From positions 16,968 to 80,967 of the IMG/VR virus record IMGVR_UViG_3300036845_000456: a DNA stretch of 64,000 nucleotides; one strand, 5' to 3'. Within the stretch, counting starts at the first letter, position 1. Each line of letters opens with the position of its first letter. Under the pieces are notes generated by a model, which saw only the letters and a list, made by a program, of their open reading frames with translations, was not told the DNA's origin and did no database searches. This document shows positions 37,797 to 64,000 of this stretch, piece after piece. The DNA is from a virus. The position numbers were made by a program, and so were the translations under genes.

Positions 37797-38219
37797 TTGC
37801 GCGACGTGTTGATCATCGCGCCGCTGGCGTTCGGCGTCGGATTCTTTATCGGGGATTCCTGGCAAGACTCTGCGCCGGTCGCGGTGTCCAGTGGCGGCCT
37901 CACGATCGTGCAGCGGTTGGCGCCAACGCCATCGTCAACGCCACCGCCATCGCCGACGCCCACGTCAACGTCTACGCCTTCGATCTCGGCCTCGCCCACG
38001 CCGTCGCCAGCGTCAACGTCTCTGTCTGCGGCCACGGCTACGTCATCGCCTCCGTCAACGTCCACGTCAACGCCTTCGCCTTCGCCATCGCCAGCGTCCT
38101 CGCCTTCGTCTGCGGCAGCGTCCTCGCCTTCGTCAACGCGCAATATCTGCTCGCCCGGGTGGCGCGAGAATTTCTATCGCCACGGAGTTCTGCACTGGCG
38201 GTGTCGCTATGGCCGATGA
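37797..38219 (+). CDS. Membrane-anchored protein whose linker is a CGYCNN array
   Basis: Transmembrane N-terminus, P/S/T linker, C-terminal IC..W..WRCR motif; start codon uncertain. Confidence 0.5.
   Translation: MRDVLIIAPLAFGVGFFIGDSWQDSAPVAVSSGGLTIVQRLAPTPSSTPPPSPTPTSTSTPSISASPTPSPASTSLSAATATSSPPSTSTSTPSPSPSPASSPSSAAASSPSSTRNICSPGWRENFYRHGVLHWRCRYGR
37921..38136 (+). repeat. CGYC-NN hexamer array H2 (36 units, one phase)
   Basis: cgccaa cgccat cgtcaa cgccac cgccat cgccga cgccca cgtcaa cgtcta cgcctt ... Confidence 0.9.
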
Positions 38220-38403
38220 TCAATGGACCGCGCAAGACAAGTTGGCCTGCATCGAGCGCGAATTGCGCTACCGGCTGCGCGTCTATCCGCGCCGGGTGGC
38301 CGAAGGCAAAATGACAGAACAGCAAATGCGGCGCGAGATTTCCATCATGGAAGCAATCGTCGCCGATCTGCGGGCCAATGCTGAGAGGGACCGGTTGATA
38401 TGA
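38209..38403 (+). CDS. Hypothetical protein
   Basis: KLACIERELRYRLRVYPRRVAEGKM pattern. Confidence 0.65.
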   Translation: MADDQWTAQDKLACIERELRYRLRVYPRRVAEGKMTEQQMRREISIMEAIVADLRANAERDRLI

Positions 38404-38535
38404 CGGATCAGGAAACGGAAACGGGATACGGGCTGACGGTCGGCTTTGATCCGCTGTTGCGCAGCTTGCGCCGCCATTTTCTCAAACCACGCTACGACAT
38501 TCCTGATAAGACAACCGCGCGCGCCATCAAAACTT

Positions 38536-38841
38536 CGCCGACGTCCTCGTCAGCGTCTACGCCGACGGCCTCGTCATCGTCATCGCCCACGTCAACGCTC
38601 TCGCCACCGCCCCTGCCTTCGCCAACGTCGTCGCCATCGTCACCGCCCTCGCCAGCGCCAACGTCTTCGCCCTCGGTGCGTCCGTGATCCAGCATCTACG
38701 GCATCGACTATGTCCTCGTTACCGTCATCGTCTCCGTCAATGCCCGCGCTAGAGCCGACGCCACCGCCTACGCCGACGCCAACGCCCTCGTCATCGCCGA
38801 CGCACCGTCAACGCCTTCGCCGACGTCTTCGCCAACGTTCT
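38536..38841 (+). repeat. CGYC-NN hexamer array H3 (~48 units), immediately upstream of RAMP gene B
   Basis: 23 in-phase units, then phase slips, continuing past the stop at 38687; ends ~21 nt before ATG 38863. Confidence 0.9.
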
Positions 38842-38862
38842 AACCACGGGAGTAACTAAGCC

Positions 38863-39519
38863 ATGCAGCGCGCCTACCAAATCGCATTCATCAAAGGCTA
38901 CATCGCGCATCCGTACTGGCCGCAGCGCGAGCGGCTGATCAACATCCAGAAGGAGTCCGGGACCAAGCGCGTGCGCTCGGAGGAAAAGCGCGTCAAGGTC
39001 TTGCGCGACTATCTGGCCACCAAAAACATGAGCATGGCCGATTACGAAGCGCTTGAGGAAGAAGCCGATCGCCAGTTCTATACGGCGGCCGATCTCGACA
39101 ATGCCGACGGCCACGACACGACCGAGATTGTGATCCCGGCGCATCAGATATACGGCATGGCGGCGCAAGCTTGCGGTCTGGCCTCAAGTTCGATCCGCAT
39201 TGCCCGCGCCGAAAATCTGCGCACGGTCCTGACCGTGTCCGACATATTCACCGGCAAGCACAAAGCAGACGGCGTATGGGAGCGTTTCGTCGTCGTCACC
39301 GCTGGCGCCGGCAACAAGCTGAGCAATCAAAGAGCGCTGCGCAGCAACGAGTATGTTGGTCCGTTTCAGGCGACATTTGAAGTGAAGTTCAGCGAGGAAG
39401 TCATCGATCCGAAAAAGGTTGACGATTTTCTCGGCTTCTGTGGCCGCGAGATCGGCGTTGGCGCCAGCCGCAAGCTCGGTTGGGGCCGCTTCGAGATCGG
39501 CAAGGCCAAAGCCAAATGA
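38863..39519 (+). CDS. Stand-alone Cas7/Csm3-like RAMP protein B
   Basis: IVIPAHQIYG resembles the RAMP IPGSSLKG motif; C-terminal Gly-rich loop IGVGASRKLGWGRFEI. Confidence 0.75.
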   Translation: MQRAYQIAFIKGYIAHPYWPQRERLINIQKESGTKRVRSEEKRVKVLRDYLATKNMSMADYEALEEEADRQFYTAADLDNADGHDTTEIVIPAHQIYGMAAQACGLASSSIRIARAENLRTVLTVSDIFTGKHKADGVWERFVVVTAGAGNKLSNQRALRSNEYVGPFQATFEVKFSEEVIDPKKVDDFLGFCGREIGVGASRKLGWGRFEIGKAKAK

Positions 39520-55343: not shown

Positions 55344-55598
55344 ATGGAACAACTCGTCATCCACGAACAGCAGCAGCCGCTGAGCGACAAGGCGATCAAG
55401 TTCCGCGTGCTCGCCGAGCACCGGGTGACGCGGCTGGTGCGCTTGATTGCGCAACTCGGCAATCTATCGCGGCGCACGACTTATGATTACACGCCGGCCG
55501 AAACCGAGCAGATGTTCCGCGCGCTGCGCGAGGCGCTCGACGCCCTGGAAGCGAAGTTCCGGGGCAAGCAGAGCGCCGCGTTCCGGTTCGAGGATTGA
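55344..55598 (+). CDS. Hypothetical protein
   Basis: KF..LAE.RV..I.QLGNLS...YDYT; AGGAGG RBS. Confidence 0.65.
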   Translation: MEQLVIHEQQQPLSDKAIKFRVLAEHRVTRLVRLIAQLGNLSRRTTYDYTPAETEQMFRALREALDALEAKFRGKQSAAFRFED

Positions 55599-55605
55599 TA
55601 ACAAA

Positions 55606-56424
55606 ATGAAGGCGCATCAGCGGGAAATTCGCGAGGAAAATAATCGATTGGACCCTCGTGAAGTGGCGCACGATTTGAGCGGTTATTCGATCGAGACGAT
55701 TTCACGCCATGATGCTGCGCAAGTCATCATCCGCTATGAATGGCTGGGAACCATGGGACGCACGGTGCATCACATCGGCTTGGTGTCACCGCAACGAGAA
55801 TTGCACGGCGTCGCGTGTTTTGGTCATGGGCCTGCGGGCTATATCCGTAAGCTAATTGGCGAGCCCGCCCTTTGTTTGGAACGTGGCGCTTGTGTGCATT
55901 ATGCGCCAAGGAACGCGGCGAGCTTTCTGATCAACAATGCCTGCAAACTGATTTATCGAATTGCGGGCGTGTCATTGTTTTTTGCTTATGCTGATCCGAA
56001 GGCGGGCGAGTATGGCGGTGTTTATCAGGCTGCGGGATGGGCTTATCTCGGGCAAGGGCTGCAAGGTCGGCCGCAGGGCCGCAAGCTTCGCTACGAAGTC
56101 CTACGTCCCGGCCTCGATCCTAATGATGATCGGAATTGGTGCACGACGCGCGAACTACGGCGAGGCGAGAAATTGGAGCATCTGACATTTGCGCAGGCCA
56201 GGGCGAAGGGGTGGCATATTCGGCGCCGGGCGGGCAAGCATGTATATGCGATCCATGTCGGCCGTGAGCGCAAGCGTTGGCGCAAGGCCCTCGTGTGGTT
56301 GCCTTATCCGGCGCCGTATCCTGAACTGAAACGGAAGCTGCCGGTGCTGTCGATCGAGCCGTTTCGGATCACGCCGCCGATTGCCGACCAAGCCGATATG
56401 TTCGCATCACTGACCAAGTTTTAG
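55606..56424 (+). CDS. Mom-like (GNAT-fold) DNA modification protein
   Basis: RYEWLG, GVACFG, L.R..PRNAASFLI and AYADPKAGEYGGVYQAAGW.YLG match the Mu Mom family pattern. Confidence 0.7.
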   Translation: MKAHQREIREENNRLDPREVAHDLSGYSIETISRHDAAQVIIRYEWLGTMGRTVHHIGLVSPQRELHGVACFGHGPAGYIRKLIGEPALCLERGACVHYAPRNAASFLINNACKLIYRIAGVSLFFAYADPKAGEYGGVYQAAGWAYLGQGLQGRPQGRKLRYEVLRPGLDPNDDRNWCTTRELRRGEKLEHLTFAQARAKGWHIRRRAGKHVYAIHVGRERKRWRKALVWLPYPAPYPELKRKLPVLSIEPFRITPPIADQADMFASLTKF

Positions 56425-56578
56425 TGTTATTTCGAAGAAAAAGTTTCGAAATCGAGCCGAGAACGGCTTGACAGTGATTGATTTTGGGGTTTTCAATTTA
56501 GGCGTGCCGCTGCGACGTCCGGCAAAGATATCGGCAACGGCACGCCAGAACCTCGGTCAACCAAGGAGGGATTTCCCT

Positions 56579-58012
56579 ATGACCGTCAATCAATCTAGCA
56601 AGCGCTTCGCTCCCCTGCAAACGCACAACGTCACGATCCCCGATCACTTGCTCGTGGTCCCAACGCACGATGATCTGCTGACGCAGACCCATACGTTCGG
56701 ATACGACGGCGAGCAGTTTTTCGGCACTGCTTACATCCAAGGGCGCCGACTGCAATTCACGACGGCAATGCCGATCTCGAAGATGATCGAGATCAGCAAG
56801 ATCGATCGCGCCAAAGCTCGCAGCAACGTCAGGGAAGTCATGGAACGTGCCAACCGGCCGCGTGTCGCGGGCCATTCCAAGGCATTACGCGAGTATTTGT
56901 TGACGACGGCATGCCGTGATGAAAAATTCATTTTGCCGGCGTTTACGTTCAACTTCGGCGATGAATCAACAACCCCCGAAGACGTTCCCGAAGCTGTGCT
57001 GATCATCTACGCGCGTGAAAACGACGTCAGCACGAATGGTTGGCCTGCTCTGTTCCAACTTCCGAGCAATATCAAATTGGATACGACCGACGGCGCGCAT
57101 CGCGGTGACGAAAGCGCAAAAATCCTCGGCGATGCCAGTCTGTCTGACGCGGAACGTGCGAACTTGCGGCGCAATGCTTGTGCGGTCACGGTCATCTTCG
57201 AGCGTAAACGTGTCGATGCGCATCAGGATTTTGCCGATTGTGCGAAGGCTAAACCGATCACCGGAAGCCTGATCACATCTTTCGATGTCCGCGATCTGCG
57301 CAATGCGCGCGCCGTGGAACTGGTACAGCGCGTGCCGTTCTTGACCTATTACGTGGATGCGACCGCTGCCAATGTTAATCTCTCGGCTGCATCCCTAAAA
57401 ATATGGTCGATGTCCGCTGTGCGCGGGTTTGTTGCTCACGTTCAGGATCGTTTTCCGCCTGCTACTGGCCAGCATGTTGAGACGACTCTGGTCGAGAAAA
57501 TGGACGGTGCCGAAGATTTCTTCACAGAAGTCATTAGACACCTACCACAACTCAACACTTTGGATCGCGCGCGCCTGGAATTGGAGGAACGGCAGCGGAC
57601 GAATGTTCCAATCAAAACACCCATGACGCGCACCGAGACGCCCGCGACTTTCCGCAATAAACGTGGTGGCGATATCGCCTTGCGTGGCGTCGGCATGAGC
57701 CTGTTTGCACGTGGTTTCGTGCATTGCAAGCAATACGGCGTGGACTATGCAGAGATGGCTAGCAAGCTCGCGACCCTCGATTGGCATTTGCTCGATATTG
57801 AAAGAACCGAGTTACCTAATCCTGAGACTGACGAAGGCCGCGAGAATTTCGCCGATAAGGTGCGCGAGCACACGAATCCGATCTGGCAAAGCATGGTTGT
57901 CGTCGGGGAGAGCCGATACAAAATCGGTTCATCCAATGACGAAGCCAATGCCGCGTGGACGCGCATACTCGCCAAGATCGATCCGGCAAGTCTGTCACAA
58001 GCGGCAGAATAA
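56579..58012 (+). CDS. DndB/DGQHR-domain protein (variant DGAHR)
   Basis: ANRPR..H...L.EYL, FILPAFTFN, TDGAHR and QDFAD..AKPI..SL...FD.RD motifs. Confidence 0.8.
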   Translation: MTVNQSSKRFAPLQTHNVTIPDHLLVVPTHDDLLTQTHTFGYDGEQFFGTAYIQGRRLQFTTAMPISKMIEISKIDRAKARSNVREVMERANRPRVAGHSKALREYLLTTACRDEKFILPAFTFNFGDESTTPEDVPEAVLIIYARENDVSTNGWPALFQLPSNIKLDTTDGAHRGDESAKILGDASLSDAERANLRRNACAVTVIFERKRVDAHQDFADCAKAKPITGSLITSFDVRDLRNARAVELVQRVPFLTYYVDATAANVNLSAASLKIWSMSAVRGFVAHVQDRFPPATGQHVETTLVEKMDGAEDFFTEVIRHLPQLNTLDRARLELEERQRTNVPIKTPMTRTETPATFRNKRGGDIALRGVGMSLFARGFVHCKQYGVDYAEMASKLATLDWHLLDIERTELPNPETDEGRENFADKVREHTNPIWQSMVVVGESRYKIGSSNDEANAAWTRILAKIDPASLSQAAE

Positions 58013-58183
58013 AGGCGACCAACACAATGCCCGCCATCTACCAATGGCAGGCGCGCGCCAGCGAGGCACTTGTCCTCGCTGGCACTGCCGCAACCATAAT
58101 TGAGCGCGAGTTATTGATCGACATCGCCAGCGCCTACGATCGGCTCGCACGGATCAATTCTGCCAAACATTCAGGCGGACAAC

Positions 58184-58564
58184 GTGAGCGATCTCCTTCA
58201 ACAGCTTGAGGACATGAAGGCCGATTGGGCCAGCAACTCGCGCGAACTGATGGCGCTCAATGCCGAGCTTGGCCCGCTGCAAACGCGCCGCTACGGCATC
58301 ATCGACGCAATCAAGCACACGCATGCTTGTTGCGTGCAACGCGATCAATATGAGCGCCAGCAAGTCTATGTGGTCGGCTACCGTCGTGCCGGCGCGGTCG
58401 AGCGGTTCAAGCTGTTTGCTGATCTCAATGAGATCGACGTCGATCTCGGCCCGCTGAACGTCCAACGCCGTGAACTGCTCAGATTGGATAAATACTTTAG
58501 GTTGACGAGCGAAGCTGTCCGCAAAGCCATGAGTGACGCGGCTAAAGGTTCAACCCGACGATGA
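58184..58564 (+). CDS. Hypothetical coiled-coil protein
   Basis: 126 aa ORF converging on the array. Confidence 0.5.
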   Translation: MSDLLQQLEDMKADWASNSRELMALNAELGPLQTRRYGIIDAIKHTHACCVQRDQYERQQVYVVGYRRAGAVERFKLFADLNEIDVDLGPLNVQRRELLRLDKYFRLTSEAVRKAMSDAAKGSTRR

Positions 58565-58585
58565 TGGATTAGATCATCGCCGGGT
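58553..58585 (-). terminator. Hairpin closing the GGY-NN array (probable terminator or 3' stem)
   Basis: Minus strand ACCCGGCGATGAT-loop-ATCATCGTCGGGT (one G-U pair), just after the last GGCAGGC. Confidence 0.55.
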
Positions 58586-58595
58586 CAATCCCTTC

Positions 58596-60249
58596 GCCTG
58601 CCTTGCCCGGCCATGGCTCGCCTTCGCCCTGCCGTGCCTGACCCGGCATAGCCAAGCCTTGCCTGCCATGCCTCGCCGGGCCCTACCAACCAAGCCTTGC
58701 CGTGCCTTGCCCCGATCACCGGGCCAAACCAAACCATGCCTGCCCTGCCTCGCCTCGACCAGCCGTGCAGCGTCTGGCCCGACCGTGCCGCGACGTGCCG
58801 CGCCTCACCACGCCTGCCGCGTCCACACCATGCCTAATTACGCACTGCCCGGCCCAGCGACATGACGCCATGACGTGCCCGATTGCGCCCTGCCCTGCCT
58901 GCCTTACCGCGCCTTACCAAGCTCTACCTTCGCCATGCCTCTTTGCGGCTCGCCCAGTTGCGCCTTGCCTGCCGTGCCCGATCACGTCACGCCTCGCCTC
59001 GCCAGATTCTGCCGAGCCTTGCCTCGCCCCGCCAAGTCACACCGCCGGACCTAGCCCTACCGAGCCACACAAGCCCCGCCGTACCGCGCCTTGTCACACC
59101 AAGCCAAACCGCGCCTGCCCGGCCAAGCCCCGCCATGCCACAACCTGCTGCGCCGAGACGTACCCTGCCGATCGAGCCTAGCCGAACGCACCGAGCCCTG
59201 CCTGCCGCGCCTTGCCGAACCACGTTACGCCGGGCCATGCCACGCCCGAAGCGCCTATTCTCGCCGGGCCTACCCGTGCCTGCCTTGCCTAAGCCGCGCC
59301 GGGCCACACCCCGCTATGCCAGGGGCTGCCGTGCCGCACCGAGACGCGCCGCCCGAGCCACGCCTGCCATGCCTTGTCCGGCGTGCCCCGGCCGGGCCCC
59401 ACCTTGCCCCGCCGTGCCTGCCTAGCCTGACCTTGTCCAGCCGAGCCGTGCACGGCCCCGCCTGACCTAATCCGGCGTCGTCCTGCCGAACCGCGCCACG
59501 CCTGCCCCGCCAAGCCCTGCCCGGCCATGCCACATCCGAGCCTCGCCTCGTCTTGCCGCGCCTCGCCTGCCATGCCTGCCCTGCCTTGCCGCGCCTTGCC
59601 GCGCCCTGCCAGACCCGACCCGGGCAGGCCCCGCCTCGCCTCGCTGGACCTTGCCTGCCTCGCCAGGGCAAGCCCCGCCTCGGCAGGCCCTGCCGCGTCA
59701 TGCCCGGCCTCGCTATGTCAAGCCGGACCGCGCCTTACCGCGCCTGCCTCCCGCGACAGGCCGCGCCGTGCCATGCCTCTTTTCGCCCAGTGTGACCTTC
59801 CGTGCCACACCAGACCGCGTCTCACCGCGCCTCGAAGCGCCGCCCAGTGCTCGCCTGCCCTGCCTCGCCTACGCCAGACCGCGCCTTGCCGCGACGTCAC
59901 AGGCCCGACCGCGCCCGGCCATGCCACGCCTGCCTCGCCACGCCTAACCCCCTTCGGGCCCGGCTACGCCTCGTTGCGTCAAACCGGGCCACGCCTTGCC
60001 TGCCTCACCAGACCACGCCTTGATCCGCCATGCCTGACCGTATCTCACCCCGCCGCTGAAACGCCCAGTCACGCCACGCCTGCCATGCCTGCCCAAGCCA
60101 AGCCCGCCCATACCCCGCCGCTGCCCGGCCTCACCGAGTGCGCCGGGCCCTGCCATGCCGGAACACGTCCCGCCTGCCATGCCTGAACTCGTCACGATGT
60201 GACGCCACGTGCCATGTAATACCCCGCCTCGCCTCGCCTGCCATGCCTG
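58596..60249 (-). repeat. Non-coding GGY-NN pentamer array, ~21 units delimited by GGCAGGC; candidate guide-RNA array
   Basis: Example unit (59574-59659): GGCAGGC AA GGT CC AGC GA GGC GA GGC GG GGC CT GCC CG GGT CG GGT CT GGC AG GGC GC GGC AA GGC GC GGC AA GGC AG GGCAGGC. Starts ~5 nt after the accessory gene stop. Confidence 0.9.
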
Positions 60250-60254
60250 ATATT

Positions 60255-60791
60255 TCATCCCGGTGGCGGCGCATGCGTTTCACCGTCCTTGCCGCCACGT
60301 CGCCGCGACGGTTTGATCCGCGCACCCGCCGCAACAATGTGTTGTAAGCCGGTTTCGAGTTGTTCTGATAGGCCGGGGAAGCGTTGGTCGAGAAACATCG
60401 CCATGTTGCGCAGTCGTGTGATAACGTCACGACATCGCTCGATCCCGTCAGCAACAACTTCCTTGGCTTGCGTAACCGTCAGTTCCGGCGCAGACAAATC
60501 AAGATAGGATTGACTGCGTTTCGGCACAAACGGATCACGAACATAAACCACCGACGAGATCGTCATTGGTGTATCAACAACAACAACAGTGACGAAGCGG
60601 AGTAGTTTGCGTGCTCGGTCAAGCCGTTGCCGGTGTGCCGCGACGTGATCATCCCAAATGAATTCCTTGTGTAAGGGATGATCCTTTGCGCGCGCGGCCT
60701 CAACGATCAGTTGGGGCGAAAGGCGGCCGCGATTTTTCTTGCGGATGTCCGCCAGTGCCTTGTGGACGCGCGCTTGCCGGTGCGATCTCAT
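60255..60791 (-). CDS. RAMP-associated accessory protein
   Basis: GRLSPQLIVEAARAKDHPLHKEFIWDD..AA...R..RAR.L conserved motif; lies between RAMP A and the array. Confidence 0.75.
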   Translation of the reverse strand: MRSHRQARVHKALADIRKKNRGRLSPQLIVEAARAKDHPLHKEFIWDDHVAAHRQRLDRARKLLRFVTVVVVDTPMTISSVVYVRDPFVPKRSQSYLDLSAPELTVTQAKEVVADGIERCRDVITRLRNMAMFLDQRFPGLSEQLETGLQHIVAAGARIKPSRRRGGKDGETHAPPPG

Positions 60792-60797
60792 GACGGT

Positions 60798-61664
60798 TTA
60801 CTCCGTGCCAATATACTCTGCGTCAGAGCCGTTGCCGCCGCGTTCAACGATCGTGCGGCTGGTGGCTGGCAACGCTAGATCAACATCAGCAAGCAGACCG
60901 TCCATCTCACGACGTTTCACTTCCTCATTGAACCACATCAAGATGTCGGCTGTGTCCTGATCAAAGAAAACCGGCTTTTCATAAGCCTTTTGCTGGACCG
61001 CGCGACCTTGCAGTTTGACCACGCTGCGGAAGTCGGCGTCATTATCGGCAACGATCTTGAACGAGCCGTATGGGCCGCCACGCTCGCCACGCCAATCGCC
61101 GATACCAACGATCACGCCGGCTGCTCCGAGCAAGTTACTGATCGTTCGCTCGCTTAGTACGTTCTTCATGTACTGGATCGAAATGCGACACGCCCACTGT
61201 GGAAAGATCGGCCGCGTGCGCACATCCGGCGTCCGATTCATGTCAGAATTTCGAACCATCGCAGAAAAGATTTGCGGCACGCCATATAAGTCGATGGTGA
61301 CATCCATGATTTTCGTCAAGCGCTCGATTTGCGCGCGCTTGGCGCCAGGAATATCGATCGCCGCTTGTGCCAAGCTCCCATGCAAGGCGCCATTGGGAAC
61401 GTGAAACAACGTCTTTTCTGGTTTGCGGCAGAGATAGAACGAACTGCGATATTCCTTGAGCGGATCATGCTTGAGCCGCTGTTCCAAACTGGCGCGGTTC
61501 TGTTGCGGTGATGGCAAAATCAGTTCCTGCCAAGCCTTGAACGGAAACCGGTGCATGATCAGCGGCGACGTGCCAAGCAAGTTGGCGCGCACTTCGCCCA
61601 TTTTGATCTCTTGGACTTCGATTTGCGTCGTTTCGGTCTTTTTACGTGCCGGTGCTTTAGCCAT
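60798..61664 (-). CDS. Stand-alone Cas7-like RAMP protein A
   Basis: N-terminal L.GTSPLIMH, HVPNGALHG, VR..DVRTRP.F..W, and Gly-rich loop AGVIVGIGDWRGERGGPYGSF. Confidence 0.8.
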   Translation of the reverse strand: MAKAPARKKTETTQIEVQEIKMGEVRANLLGTSPLIMHRFPFKAWQELILPSPQQNRASLEQRLKHDPLKEYRSSFYLCRKPEKTLFHVPNGALHGSLAQAAIDIPGAKRAQIERLTKIMDVTIDLYGVPQIFSAMVRNSDMNRTPDVRTRPIFPQWACRISIQYMKNVLSERTISNLLGAAGVIVGIGDWRGERGGPYGSFKIVADNDADFRSVVKLQGRAVQQKAYEKPVFFDQDTADILMWFNEEVKRREMDGLLADVDLALPATSRTIVERGGNGSDAEYIGTE

Positions 61665-62044
61665 GGTGGTTTTGTATCCTTCGGGTTTTATGCACGAGCG
61701 GCGGCACGATCGCCCGTCAGAGAGATCGTGCCGCCTATCTCGCGCGAGAGTTAGGATTAAAGCCTGACGGGCAGCGCTGAATTTGCAGTGTCAACCGAAT
61801 GTTGTCAACTCTGCAATATATGCGTATAGGCCAAACGACGGCGCATCGCGCCCGGCGGGCAGGTGGCGCGTAACAAATAACGGCCCGCAGTCGGCTCGCG
61901 TGGTGTCCACTTTCGCACTGCGCGGCGCGCCGATGTCGGGGCGGCCGGCTCTGATCGCCGGGCGCGGCGAATGCAAAACGTTGCGTGGGCCTACATGCCC
62001 CTGCCCCTTCCATCGGCTTAACCCCATACGCGAGCTTGCCCCAA

Positions 62045-62320
62045 ATGATCCGCGAAGATTTCATCGTTGAGGGAATAGTGTTCAACGTCACGATCGCGAT
62101 GCCCGCGCACGCAACAGGCTGGTTTAGCGTCAACGTCTGCGGCCCGGGCAAGCGCCGCAAGCTCCGCGAATATTGCCTCGGATGGAACGGAGAACGGTTC
62201 GCGCACAGCGGAGCGCTGCAAGAGCTTGAGCGCTACCACCCCAACGTCCTGCCGCAAATTTTGCAATGGCTGCAAAGCCCGGAGATGCGCGAGGCATTGA
62301 GCACAGCAACCAATAAGTGA
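62045..62320 (+). CDS. Hypothetical protein
   Basis: LGWNGERFA motif. Confidence 0.45.
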   Translation: MIREDFIVEGIVFNVTIAMPAHATGWFSVNVCGPGKRRKLREYCLGWNGERFAHSGALQELERYHPNVLPQILQWLQSPEMREALSTATNK

Positions 62321-62676
62321 TCCCGTGATTTTTGGGTTGTGCGCCTCGCCCCCATTCCCACGCTATATTCTGTCCTTCCCCCATTATTCGCGCAAAAGCG
62401 GGGAAAAGCGGGGAACAGCGGGTGGCCACGAGGCGCCCCCATTTCTTCGTAACTACCTTCCCTTCAGGAAGGAAGAAGAAAAGGGGGAAGACCATCCCCC
62501 CCTTTTTCTGCTTCGCTTCGCTGAAAAAGGGGGGTTCAGGTGTAGTTACGAAGAACCAGTGGCGCCGAGCCAAAAATTCCGCGCTTTGCCCCTCGGTTGC
62601 ACTTCCAGAGAAAAGTTAAGCCAATTGTCGGCAAACTCTTGACTCGGATTGTAGTCCTGCGTCAGAAATCGCGTTC

Positions 62677-63189
62677 ATGGTCGGGCAAGCCACAAAACGT
62701 TGGATCGTTGTGCGCACGCGTGGCGGTCGGGAAAACTGGGCTCTGGAAAATGCCACCGCGCAAAAATTCGAGTGCTACTTGCCGAAAATCCTCGAACGCG
62801 TGACCTTCAACGATCAAAAACTCTCCGTCGCTCGACCGCTGTTTCCGAGCTACATGTTCGTCCTCGCCGATCGCTGGCGCGTCTTGCTCTCAACTTTCGG
62901 AATTGTCGGAATCGTCATGCGCGGTAGCGAGCCCGATTGCTTGCCCAATCGCGTGATCCATGATCTACGCGAACGCGAAGGCGACGACGGAATTATCGTC
63001 CTGCCAAAACCAAAAGCAGTTCTCGGTCCCAACTCTCAGGTGCAAATCCTCAAAGGTCCGTTCCAAGGCCATGCCGGCGTCATCGCCAACATGCGCCCAC
63101 ACGAACGGGCTCGCGTGCTGCTCGACTTCCTCGGACGCAAGACCGACGTACTGATCGCCAACTCCGATCTCGCCTTGATCGCCGCTTGA
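62677..63189 (+). CDS. NusG/RfaH-family transcription antiterminator (phage paralog)
   Basis: W.VV.T, YLP, PLFPSYMFV, STFGIVGIV NGN domain; V.ILKGPF.G KOW motif; VLLDFLGR. Confidence 0.9.
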   Translation: MVGQATKRWIVVRTRGGRENWALENATAQKFECYLPKILERVTFNDQKLSVARPLFPSYMFVLADRWRVLLSTFGIVGIVMRGSEPDCLPNRVIHDLREREGDDGIIVLPKPKAVLGPNSQVQILKGPFQGHAGVIANMRPHERARVLLDFLGRKTDVLIANSDLALIAA

Positions 63190-63260
63190 AAGATTTCCAG
63201 TACGTGCCGTGTCGAACAATTCTGGTGCGAGCTTGATCCCAGTGGGTAACCAGCGCTGGT

Positions 63261-63268
63261 GCGGTAGC
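63261..63268 (+). promoter_or_regulatory. ops-like element GCGGTAGC
   Basis: Matches the core of the RfaH ops site; 72 nt downstream of the NusG paralog, ahead of the late genes. Confidence 0.45.
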
Positions 63269-63273
63269 TTGTG

Positions 63274-63310
63274 AAAAACCCGATGGCAACAATCAAGTCA
63301 CCATCGGGTT
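63274..63310 (-). terminator. Rho-independent terminator after the orphan GGY-NN unit
   Basis: Minus strand AACCCGATGG..CCATCGGG followed by TTTTT. Confidence 0.6.
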
Positions 63311-63320
63311 CTCATATTCG

Positions 63321-63436
63321 GCCTGCCTTGACCAGCCTCGGCCCGATTTGCCTGACCGGGCATCGCCATTTCTGGCCTCACCGCGCTACACGTGCCGCGC
63401 CGCTTCCGGCCGCACCATGCCCCGCCTGCCATGCCT
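63321..63436 (-). repeat. Orphan single GGY-NN unit flanked by GGCAGGC
   Basis: Begins AGGCATGGCAGGC like the main array and ends GGCAGGC plus a terminator. Confidence 0.75.
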
Positions 63437-63449
63437 AAGTGATTTGTCT

Positions 63450-63782
63450 ATGCCAGATCAACCCGATCATCTCAACCGGTCAGCACCATGGCGACGATGG
63501 TATGGGCTACGATCTTGGCGCCGACGTGCGCGCGCCCAACTCATAAGCGAGCCATGGTGCGAAAGCTGTAAACGGAAAGGCGCCGCTGTTGCTGCAACTA
63601 CCGCTGACCACATCCAAAGGCATGCAGGCAACTATGAGCAATTCCACTTCGGTCGGCTGCAAAGTTTGTGCACGAATTGCCACAATCAAGACAAGGCTTT
63701 CGCGGAACATCGTGGCTTCACGAAGGGCACTGACGTTGATGGCTTTCCGCTCGATGAAGCGCACTTCTGCTACCGCGACTGA
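63450..63782 (+). CDS. Terminase-associated HNH endonuclease (HK97 gp74-like)
   Basis: WY...W...R..QL..EPWC..C..ADHI..H..LQSLC..CH..K..D.DG.P.D..H. Confidence 0.9.
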   Translation: MPDQPDHLNRSAPWRRWYGLRSWRRRARAQLISEPWCESCKRKGAAVAATTADHIQRHAGNYEQFHFGRLQSLCTNCHNQDKAFAEHRGFTKGTDVDGFPLDEAHFCYRD

Positions 63783-64000
63783 GCGCACCACCTACACCAC
63801 CCCACATCAGCAAAACCATCGTTAATCTAAGGTTGAGTGACTAAGGCAGCCTTTACCACTCAACCGCAAATAGCGATTTGGTATCGTGGTATAGCACACT
63901 TAGCTCCATGGTACTTCTTGGGGGATGGCTAAATCTTCAATGATATCAAGGGGATGGGGGGATCTCGTTTTTGATCCGGTCGCCAATCCCGCGAGCGCGG

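What the first reader, a model, noticed from the sequence alone, without database searches (positions are those of the whole stretch)
58553..61664. Candidate RNA-guided system: stand-alone Cas7-like RAMP, accessory gene and segmented GGY-NN pentamer array
Seen: a minus-strand operon of RAMP-like gene, accessory gene, ~1.65 kb array and closing hairpin. The array has a 5-nt period with a fixed GGY and two variable bases. It is punctuated by GGCAGGC (plus-strand gcctgcc at 58596, 58661, 58738, 58812, 58897, 58967, 59113, 59200, 59278, 59362, 59416, 59500, 59565/59574, 59653, 59742, 59853, 59928, 59998, 60078/60087, 60172, 60236). That gives ~21 units, mostly 54-111 nt long, each with a different NN string. 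A 5-nt period is not compatible with protein coding, and there is no CRISPR repeat-spacer array, cas1/2 or nuclease. Known: Cas7/RAMP proteins oligomerise along guide RNAs with a fixed nucleotide step. Inference: each unit is a guide in which GGY binds a RAMP subunit and the NN pairs read a gapped target, perhaps to repress or interfere with competing phages. From memory this resembles recently reported phage 'VIPR' GGY/NN systems; that needs checking against the literature.
Basis: partly seen in the sequence, partly recalled or inferred. Interest (0 to 1): 0.97.

Follow-up and report, generated by a model that had tools for sequence, protein, structure and literature searches.

The report
Soil phage VIPR guide-RNA system

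Summary
On the minus strand there is a 288-aa Cas7-like gene and a 178-aa accessory gene. They are followed by a 1.66-kb array with a 5-nt period, fixed GGY and free NN. The array is cut into about 21 units by GGCAGGC and ends in a strong hairpin.

The protein matches the solved SUSP1 Vipr protein by sequence and keeps four of its five reported GGY-contact residues. Its model has a Csm3/Cas7 fold. About 70 of 83 related viral loci carry vipr, vap and a same-strand GGY-NN array, mostly with the same one-base-overlap punctuation. This is the "staggered" vrRNA array of bioRxiv 10.64898/2026.04.26.720920 (fig. S18 legend).

It is therefore a new, unannotated member of a known kind. This scan has already found staggered VIPR arrays in at least 10 other genomes.

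Additions made here:
- A solo guide with its own terminator lies 1.7 kb upstream.
- The NN spectrum mimics sense-strand codon positions 1-2.
- In relatives with identical vipr genes, whole guide units are swapped.

Not shown: expression, processing or any target. Seeds from nine guides gave only chance-level hits. The same phage also carries a second, hexamer-coded RAMP system, which is a separate finding.

The parts
60798..61664 (-). vipr: 288-aa single-RRM RAMP (Cas7-like). The core is residues about 20-208, with G-loop GIGDWRGERGGPYG. A clade-specific C-terminal helical extension covers 209-254, followed by a disordered tail.
   Evidence: phmmer hit to PDB 36pp_D 'SUSP1 Vipr protein', E 0.0044; family profile hit E 2.7e-8. 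AF2 model pLDDT 90.5. Foldseek top hits are Csm3/Cas7, probability 1.0. VIA-align Z 10.1, 155 residues aligned. phrog_4652.
60255..60791 (-). vap-like accessory gene (178 aa), starting 7 nt after the vipr stop. N-terminal helix/beta-hairpin domain plus a C-terminal helical hairpin and a basic tail.
   Evidence: A tblastn homolog lies next to vipr in most of the 83 related loci. phrog_15946. AF2 model pLDDT 89.1. No significant fold match. Nearest Atlas clusters are viral hypothetical proteins.
58596..60252 (-). Staggered vrRNA array: about 21 guide units of GGY-NN pentamers. Each unit ends in GGCAG, whose last G is the first G of the next unit (GGCAGGC).
   Evidence: The same grammar is found in related loci. 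It matches the fig. S18 legend of bioRxiv 10.64898/2026.04.26.720920.
58550..58588 (-). Closing hairpin directly after the last GGCAGGC. It has no U-tract, so it may be a stabiliser or terminator shared with the convergent plus-strand gene that ends at 58564.
   Evidence: RNA fold -35.1 kcal/mol, z = -4.91, 0 of 200 shuffles as stable.
61665..61810 (-). 5' leader with two TTGACA hexamers (61808-61803 and 61794-61789). Candidate promoter region of the vipr-vap-array operon.
   Evidence: Sequence reading only. The consensus scan did not call a promoter here. This is an inference.
63321..63436 (-). Solo upstream vrRNA unit. It starts with the same AGGCATGGCAGGC word as the main array and ends in GGCAGGC. 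It lies between the NusG-like gene and the HNH gene, antisense to both.
   Evidence: GGY lag-5 scan of the whole 81-kb genome. Sequence. GCCTGCC at 63321 and 63424. Contigs from two other soil runs replace 63272-63462 with about 32 nt.
63272..63314 (-). Intrinsic terminator of the solo vrRNA: a long hairpin followed by U5.
   Evidence: RNA fold -29.3 kcal/mol, z = -4.24. Sequence.

Best explanation
This is a VIPR (Viral Interference Programmable Repeat) system on an 81-kb tailed soil phage. Shown here: vipr encodes a minimal Cas7-like RAMP homologous to the solved SUSP1 Vipr, and it keeps the residues reported to grip the two G's and the pyrimidine. A conserved accessory gene follows it. A 1.66-kb same-strand array of GGY-NN pentamers comes next, built as a 'staggered' array in which each unit ends in GGCAG and shares its last G with the next unit. 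Inferred from the published systems: vipr, vap and the array are transcribed as one RNA, which is cut or trimmed into about 21 guide RNAs of roughly 11-20 repeats. One Vipr protomer binds each repeat, hides the GGY and exposes the NN. The filament then binds double-stranded DNA that matches NN-x-NN-x, with the skipped base falling on the codon wobble position, and blocks transcription of genes of competing phages or other mobile elements. The 4-nt step at GGCAG|GC breaks the 5-nt register, so it probably ends one filament and starts the next, leaving a site for trimming. A solo guide with its own terminator lies 1.7 kb upstream and would load the same protein.
For: Sequence homology to SUSP1 Vipr. 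D190-W191-R192 and R151 align with the reported GGY-contact residues D177, W178, R179 and R138. Csm3/Cas7 fold, Z about 10. Lag-5 period with low-entropy GGY and high-entropy NN. About 70 of 83 related viral loci have vipr, vap and a GGY-NN array, always on the vipr strand and never on the opposite strand. The 4-nt step at GGCAGGC or a lineage-specific variant is clade-wide. Phage context with no cas genes. No self-target above shuffled guides, as reported for published systems. The NN spectrum fits sense codon positions 1-2. For this phage r is 0.69 against its own genes and 0.59 (permutation p 0.008) against the pooled gene model. For 61 pooled loci r is 0.67. This model is the best of six in 31 of 33 loci, and the N4-N5 coupling residuals correlate at r 0.62 (p 0.005). 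Loci with identical vipr genes carry different guide sets.
Against: No RNA data exist for this phage, so transcription, processing and loading are not shown. No target was found: exact seeds from nine guides in IMG/VR or metagenomes gave only chance-level hits. About 24% of pentamers are degenerate and there are 14 irregular slips, so part of the array may be inactive. According to the paper, staggered arrays have not been confirmed experimentally. This Vipr is 86 aa longer than SUSP1 Vipr, and its skip rule has not been tested. The role of Vap is unknown.
Confidence: 0.85

Rival explanations
1. The locus is a decaying VIPR system. The genes and array are of VIPR origin, but many or most guides no longer work, so the locus has little present-day activity.
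For: 73 of 301 pentamers are not GGY, and there are 14 irregular phase slips, more than in most relatives. No target was found for nine guides.
Against: Both ORFs are intact, and the invariant family residues and GGY-contact residues are kept. Degeneracy inside vrRNAs is reported as common in working systems. A contig from another soil study keeps 1.16 kb of the array at about 96.6% identity. The target search had low sensitivity.
Confidence: 0.07
2. The array, or at least the solo unit, acts as a decoy or redirector. On this view its guides load the Vipr of competing phages, or steer the phage's own Vipr to harmless sites. This is what has been reported for satellite-encoded solo vrRNAs.
For: Published precedent for solo vrRNAs that redirect VIPR (abstract of bioRxiv 10.64898/2026.10.15.759431). 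The solo unit is an insertion/deletion polymorphism among related soil phages. Its GGY integrity is poor.
Against: The main array sits in the canonical position downstream of its own vipr-vap pair, as in about 70 related loci. Nothing here points to decoy sites.
Confidence: 0.05
3. The 5-nt periodic tract is a non-functional satellite repeat or an odd coding region that lies next to a RAMP-like gene by chance.
For: Mechanical ORFs of up to 219 aa cross the tract in several frames.
Against: A 5-nt period cannot keep a reading frame. The association with vipr-vap is repeated in about 70 independent viral loci, always on the same strand. The punctuation grammar is conserved while the NN content differs.
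Confidence: 0.01

Closest known systems
VIPR systems with staggered vrRNA arrays (bioRxiv 10.64898/2026.04.26.720920, text and fig. S18 legend)
   Same: Vipr RAMP plus an accessory gene plus a GGY/NN pentamer array with no tails or ribozymes between units. Adjacent vrRNAs overlap by 1 nt, so the end of one marks the start of the next. The carrier is a virus.
   Different: Nothing defining differs. The figure and the type table are not readable here, so the VIPR type (I-VII) could not be assigned. Per the paper, this array class is predicted from sequence only and has not been confirmed by small-RNA sequencing. This locus adds a solo upstream unit and is a large example (about 21 units), though larger ones exist (L009 at about 2.1-2.4 kb; earlier scan notes).
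Type II VIPR of Escherichia phage SUSP1 and the Pseudomonas fulva prophage (the experimentally characterised systems; PDB 36pp)
   Same: Homologous Vipr with the G-loop D-W-R motif and the thumb arginine conserved. GGY/NN repeats. One guide upstream and an array downstream of the genes. A two-gene operon. Phage-borne.
   Different: SUSP1 vrRNAs each have an invariant 3' tail with a pseudoknot, and there are only four of them. Here there is no tail, the units abut with a 1-nt overlap, and there are about 21. This Vipr has 288 aa against 202, with an extra C-terminal helical domain. Whether Vap is related to vap1 could not be tested.
CRISPR-Cas class 1 backbone subunits (Csm3/Cmr4/Cas7 of types III and VII)
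   Same: Same RRM, G-loop and thumb fold (Z 9-10 over about 150 residues). By homology, the same principle of one protomer per fixed RNA step.
   Different: There is no repeat-spacer array, no cas1/cas2, no Cas10/Cas5/Cas6 and no second RAMP in the locus. The step is 5 nt with 2 read bases instead of 6 nt with 5 read bases. Guide content is hard-wired in tandem repeats.
Non-canonical VIPR-like arrays (bioRxiv 10.64898/2026.10.21.760802) and the CGYC-NN hexamer arrays of the same phage
   Same: A fixed core alternating with two free bases, next to a small Vipr-like RAMP.
   Different: The array studied here is fully canonical GGY/NN. The co-resident RAMP at 38863-39519 is only marginally similar (pairwise E 0.37), lacks the D-W-R motif, and sits beside 6-nt repeats.

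Membership tests
VIPR system | Vipr protein: a minimal single-RRM RAMP with G-loop and thumb, homologous to described Vipr proteins | tested here: met
   phmmer E 0.0044 and family-profile E 2.7e-8 to PDB 36pp_D 'SUSP1 Vipr protein'. AF2 pLDDT 90.5. Csm3/Cas7 are the top structural matches: Foldseek probability 1.0, VIA-align Z 10.1, rmsd 3.8 A, 155 residues aligned.
VIPR system | Residues that hold the GGY motif in SUSP1 Vipr (H17, R138, D177, W178, R179) | tested here: met
   R151, D190, W191 and R192 align with R138, D177, W178 and R179 (alignment; residue roles). R151, D190 and R192 are invariant or nearly so in 60 homologs. The equivalent of H17 lies outside the aligned stretch. H38 is a candidate but was not tested.
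VIPR system | vrRNA: at least 4 tandem YNNGG (GGY/NN) repeats beside vipr, with GGY conserved and NN hypervariable | tested here: met
   301 pentamers, 228 of them perfect GGY. Entropy 0.6-0.9 bits at GGY against 1.9-2.0 bits at NN. Same strand as vipr, starting right after the vap stop codon.
VIPR system | Minimal locus: vipr plus one vap gene, with no CRISPR array and no other cas genes | tested here: met
   The two-gene operon is conserved in related loci. Neighbouring genes are Mom-like, DndB-like, NusG-like and HNH. Neither protein has a PADLOC, Pfam or NCBIfam cas hit.
VIPR system | Accessory protein belongs to one of the described vap1-6 families | not testable with these tools
The Vap model has no significant match. 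The weak top Foldseek rows are winged-helix regulators at E about 0.4.
VIPR system | Array architecture of a described class (tailed, staggered, ribozyme-interspersed or single) | tested here: met
   Staggered class: 26 four-nt steps, 19 of them at GGCAGGC, matching the fig. S18 legend. No hammerhead or other Rfam family is present.
VIPR system | vrRNAs are expressed, processed and bound by Vipr | not testable with these tools
   No RNA run is listed for this DNA. This needs small-RNA sequencing and a pull-down.
VIPR system | NN strings match DNA targets under the 1-nt skip rule, with skips on the wobble position, and the targets lie in competing mobile elements | tested here: inconclusive
   No hit above shuffled guides in the phage's own genome or in the 83 related loci. 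Exact 9-10-unit seeds from nine guides gave only chance-level hits in IMG/VR and metagenomes. Indirect support: the NN spectrum fits sense codon positions 1-2.
VIPR system | Carried by a virus or provirus (most described systems) | tested here: met
   The record is an 81-kb virus contig with sheath, tape-measure, baseplate, endolysin and primase-helicase genes.
CRISPR-Cas (class 1) | Repeat-spacer array with repeats of about 24-40 nt, adaptation genes cas1/cas2, and a multi-subunit effector with several RAMPs | tested here: not met
   The only periodicity is 5 nt. There are no cas families in the locus or its flanks.

The most novel reading that the evidence does not exclude
In this Vipr clade the guides may not be arbitrary. 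Across 61 loci their NN strings carry the composition and base-coupling signature of sense-strand codon positions 1-2. Whole guide units are also exchanged between phages whose vipr genes are 100% identical. If this reflects an active, strand-aware way of making new guides from coding sequences or transcripts, staggered VIPR arrays would be an updatable memory, a step towards CRISPR-like adaptation. The alternative is slow selection plus recombination at the GGCAGGC joints. In addition, this phage would run two orthogonal repeat codes side by side: the GGY-NN pentamer and the CGYC-NN hexamer.
Probability: 0.12. Interest if true: 0.85.

Novelty: new member of a known kind. Interest (0 to 1): 0.4.

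Why it matters
VIPR is a very recent discovery and only type II systems have been studied at the bench. This locus is a clean, complete natural example of the staggered array class, which has so far only been predicted. It has about 21 guides, a solo guide and a well-modelled protein, so it is a reasonable candidate for testing how tail-less arrays are cut into guides. The codon-like, sense-biased NN spectrum and the unit-level turnover seen in relatives bear on how guide repertoires arise. That is an open question for the proposed VIPR-to-CRISPR evolutionary link. As a discovery in itself it adds little, because hundreds of VIPR loci are published and this scan has met the same architecture in at least ten other genomes.

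Tried and rejected
Target search:
- All in-phase guides of at least 9 units were scanned under skip rules 0-3 against the phage's own genome (array masked) and the 83 related loci. Nothing exceeded shuffled guides.
- 175 guides from all related arrays were scanned against all loci. Skip 1 was not clearly better than the other rules or shuffles, and the best hit (19/22) is within chance.
- Exact-seed scans used 8 guides in IMG/VR and 2 in metagenomes, 9 distinct guides in all. All 48 metagenome seed hits extend at no more than 6/12. The IMG/VR hits fail on extension.
- One whole 9-unit run matches 18/18 in a complete 101-kb, 69% GC phage without vipr (G001:31134-31159). The match lies over a start codon, in wobble register. 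About one chance hit per 18-base scan was seen, and no other guide hits that genome, so it is not claimed as a target.

RNA evidence: no RNA holder is listed.

Variant positions in contigs from other soil runs: 11 of the 24 listed changes fall on NN, against 38% expected (p 0.27). The list was truncated, so this is uninformative. Array joints in those contigs have short sides and were not relied on.

Rfam: no family in 58000-64000.

Vap:
- There is no Pfam or NCBIfam hit, and the profile search of solved structures found nothing.
- PHROGs gave only phrog_15946, of unknown function, and a non-significant Lsr2-like hit (E 0.07).
- Fold searches returned only generic helical hairpins (Z under 8) and winged-helix rows at E about 0.4.

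Host and relatives:
- There is no megablast relative among 50,697 phage records. tblastn finds only distant Gordonia phage homologs at 26-29% identity.
- The first genome-contig scan found nothing, and the second found three MAG loci from different phyla.
- The host remains unknown, and no integrase was found among the ORFs tested.

The VIPR type (I-VII) could not be assigned, because the figure and data tables are not held.
Full report
**Observation.** The minus strand of window 58,540-61,830 was read and parsed.
- Base autocorrelation of the tract 58,553-60,260 peaks at lag 5 (0.486) and at 10, 15 and 20. Both flanks stay near 0.25.
- A dynamic-programming parse into pentamers gives 301 full units, of which 228 are perfect GG[CT]NN. 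Entropy is 0.62, 0.89 and 0.93 bits at the three fixed positions and 1.90 and 1.99 bits at the two free ones.
- Each marks a place where an in-phase run ends in GGCA and the next run starts at GGC. This is a 4-nt step in which one G is shared.
- The tract begins a few bases after the stop codon of the 178-aa ORF. It ends in a 16-bp hairpin (z = -4.9).

The caveat is that about a quarter of the pentamers are degenerate and 14 irregular slips occur.

**The proteins.**
- The 288-aa product (P0001) has no Pfam, NCBIfam or PADLOC family, but it matches phrog_4652.
- It directly matches the chain deposited as 'SUSP1 Vipr protein' (PDB 36pp_D), with E 0.0044 alone and 2.7e-8 as a 60-sequence profile.
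- The aligned stretch holds the G-loop. D190-W191-R192 and R151 correspond to D177, W178, R179 and R138. The cryo-EM preprint reports that these residues hold G1, G2 and the pyrimidine.
- An exhaustive HMMER search finds 2,503 representative clusters at E <= 0.001.
- The AlphaFold model (pLDDT 90.5) has Csm3/Cas7 of type III and VII CRISPR effectors as its best structural matches. Foldseek gives probability 1.0. VIA-align gives Z about 10 over residues 20-208.
- Residues 209-254 form a conserved helical extension that the 202-aa SUSP1 protein cannot have.
- The 178-aa product (P0002) matches only phrog_15946. It models well (pLDDT 89) but has no significant structural relative. Its nearest Atlas clusters are viral hypothetical proteins. 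Its function is open.

**Context.**
- The window is the last 64 kb of an 80,967-bp single-contig virus record with 59.7% GC.
- It encodes tail sheath, tape-measure, baseplate, tail-fibre, endolysin, primase-helicase, RecE-like, Mom-like and DndB-like proteins, plus a NusG-like antiterminator.
- The DNA comes from a soil metagenome. Both proteins are on record only in JGI/IMG and Logan, as 'hypothetical protein'.
- No cas gene or CRISPR array lies nearby.

**Comparative evidence.** Eighty IMG/VR loci and three MAG loci encoding homologs (40-64% identity) were fetched.
- Nearly all have a Vap homolog directly after vipr.
- About 70 have one or more GGY-NN arrays next to the genes, every one on the vipr strand and none on the opposite strand.
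- In the 48 loci with at least 300 nt of array, in-phase steps outnumber 4-nt steps about ten to one.
- The 4-nt steps fall overwhelmingly on GGCAGGC or on a lineage-specific variant: GGCAGTC, GGCAGAC, GGCTGTT, GGCGGTT or GGCTGAC.
- Array size ranges up to about 2.1-2.4 kb (L009), so the 1.66 kb here is large but not exceptional.
- L056 and L061 have vipr genes identical at the nucleotide level, but carry 9 and 5 guide units, of which only two are shared. Guide sets therefore turn over by whole units.

**Literature.** VIPR was described in 2026 preprints.
- bioRxiv 10.64898/2026.04.26.720920 covers the discovery, the GGY/NN vrRNAs, the 1-nt skip rule on double-stranded DNA, transcriptional silencing, seven types and vap1-6.
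- bioRxiv 10.64898/2026.04.26.720927 gives the filament and triplex structures.
- bioRxiv 10.64898/2026.10.15.759431 covers competition between phages and satellites, and solo vrRNAs.
- bioRxiv 10.64898/2026.10.21.760802 recovered 99 period-5 array clusters independently.
- The first paper names 'staggered arrays with overlapping vrRNAs'. Its fig. S18 legend says the vrRNAs derive from positions overlapping by 1 nt, which is exactly the grammar seen here.
- The same text says that only the ribozyme-interspersed and single-vrRNA architectures were confirmed by small-RNA sequencing. Processing of staggered arrays is therefore still unproven.

**Additional parts.** A genome-wide scan for GGY at 5-nt spacing finds the main array and one further site at 63,321-63,436 on the same strand. 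It opens with the same AGGCATGGCAGGC word as the array and ends in GGCAGGC. A strong hairpin with U5 follows it. It fills the gap between the NusG-like gene and the HNH gene, whose likely start is the ATG at 63,450. Contigs from two other soil runs replace 63,272-63,462 with about 32 nt, so this solo unit is a presence/absence polymorphism. An earlier first-stage note on this window lists the same unit (e1-6077719).

**Targets.** No guide matches the phage's own genome, or the 83 related loci, better than shuffled guides under any skip rule. Exact seeds of 9-10 units from nine guides were scanned in IMG/VR and metagenome contigs, and all hits behave as chance. One complete 9-unit run matches 18/18 in a 101-kb, 69% GC phage that lacks vipr. 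The match lies over the start codon of a gene that follows a 554-aa ORF (not annotated here), in wobble register. Roughly one chance hit per 18-base scan was observed, and no other guide supports that genome. Targets therefore remain unknown. Exact seeding is insensitive, so this neither supports nor refutes the model.

**A target-free test.** If guides copy coding sequence with the wobble base skipped, NN pairs should look like codon positions 1-2.
- The 212 clean NN pairs of this array fit the sense (1,2) dinucleotide spectrum of the phage's own genes better than five alternative registers or strands, or the genome background (r 0.69).
- Against the gene model pooled over all loci, r is 0.59 with permutation p 0.008.
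- The same holds for 3,749 NN pairs pooled from 61 distinct loci: r is 0.67, against 0.03 for the antisense reading.
- Sense (1,2) is the best of six models in 31 of 33 loci with at least 50 pairs.
- After removing single-position composition, the N4-N5 coupling residuals still correlate with those of codons (r 0.62, p 0.005).

This agrees with the published wobble-skipping rule. It also suggests a sense-strand bias in this clade, whereas the paper reports targets on both strands. A structural preference of Vipr for purine at N4 could contribute, so this remains an inference.

**Mechanism.**
- Shown here: the homology, the fold, the contact residues, the repeat grammar, its conservation, and the viral context.
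- Inferred from the characterised type II systems: co-transcription of vipr, vap and the array; one protomer per pentamer; NN pairing to NN-x-NN DNA; silencing of competitors.
- My own inference: the 4-nt step at GGCAG|GC breaks the filament register and so defines guide ends without a tail, a ribozyme or a Cas6-like enzyme.

**Verdict.** This is a correct reading of a real system and a new, unannotated member of a known kind. This scan has already reported staggered VIPR arrays in at least ten other genomes. Interest is moderate. The locus is a good bench candidate for the untested staggered class. The codon-sense signature and the unit turnover are small additions to what is published. The same phage also carries a second, divergent RAMP gene beside 6-nt CGYC-NN arrays, which is treated as a separate finding.

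Noticed in passing
window 37921-39519: A second, divergent RAMP-like gene (38863-39519, 218 aa) sits beside arrays with a 6-nt period (lag-6 autocorrelation 0.51-0.67, CGYC-NN). Against P0001 it scores only E 0.37 and it lacks the D-W-R motif of the G-loop. One phage would therefore carry two different repeat codes.
   Followed up: partly
window 63272-63462: Contigs from two other soil metagenome runs (X2, X5) join 63271 to 63463 with about 32 other letters in between. The solo vrRNA and its terminator are therefore absent from close relatives of this phage.
   Followed up: partly
L056:4340-4900 and L061:2110-2670: Two IMG/VR phages with 100% identical vipr genes carry 9 and 5 guide units, and only two units are shared. 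Repertoires change by whole units while the protein gene stays fixed.
   Followed up: partly
L038-L043, L051, L062, L066 (arrays downstream of vipr): The word at the 4-nt step differs by lineage: GGCAGTC, GGCAGAC, GGCTGTT, GGCGGTT or GGCTGAC instead of GGCAGGC. The punctuation may co-evolve with the protein or with a processing factor.
   Followed up: partly
window 60798-61040 (Vipr residues 209-288): The clade has a conserved C-terminal helical extension (Q224, A227, W244 and R252 conserved) that the 202-aa SUSP1 Vipr lacks. Its role is unknown.
   Followed up: no
window 55447-58012: A DNA-modification module lies directly downstream of the array on the other strand: a Mom-family protein (PF25680) and a DndB-family protein (PF14072).
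   Followed up: no
window 58462-61706: One contig of run X2 joins 58462 to 61706 and so skips the whole vipr-vap-array cassette. Only 30 letters lie on one side, so the hint is weak. If real, close relatives lack or have replaced the cassette.
   Followed up: no
G001:C1:31134-31159 (IMGVR_UViG_3300049005_000030): The whole 9-unit run at window 59115-59071 matches 18/18 over the start codon of a small gene that follows a 554-aa ORF (not annotated here), in a complete 101-kb, 69% GC phage without vipr. The skipped bases fall on wobble positions. The match is within chance expectation and no other guide supports it.
   Followed up: yes
window 62479-62506: A GC-rich hairpin flanked by A and T runs on both strands (a bidirectional terminator-like site) lies inside the mechanical ORF 62130-62573, between vipr and the NusG-like gene.
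   Followed up: no
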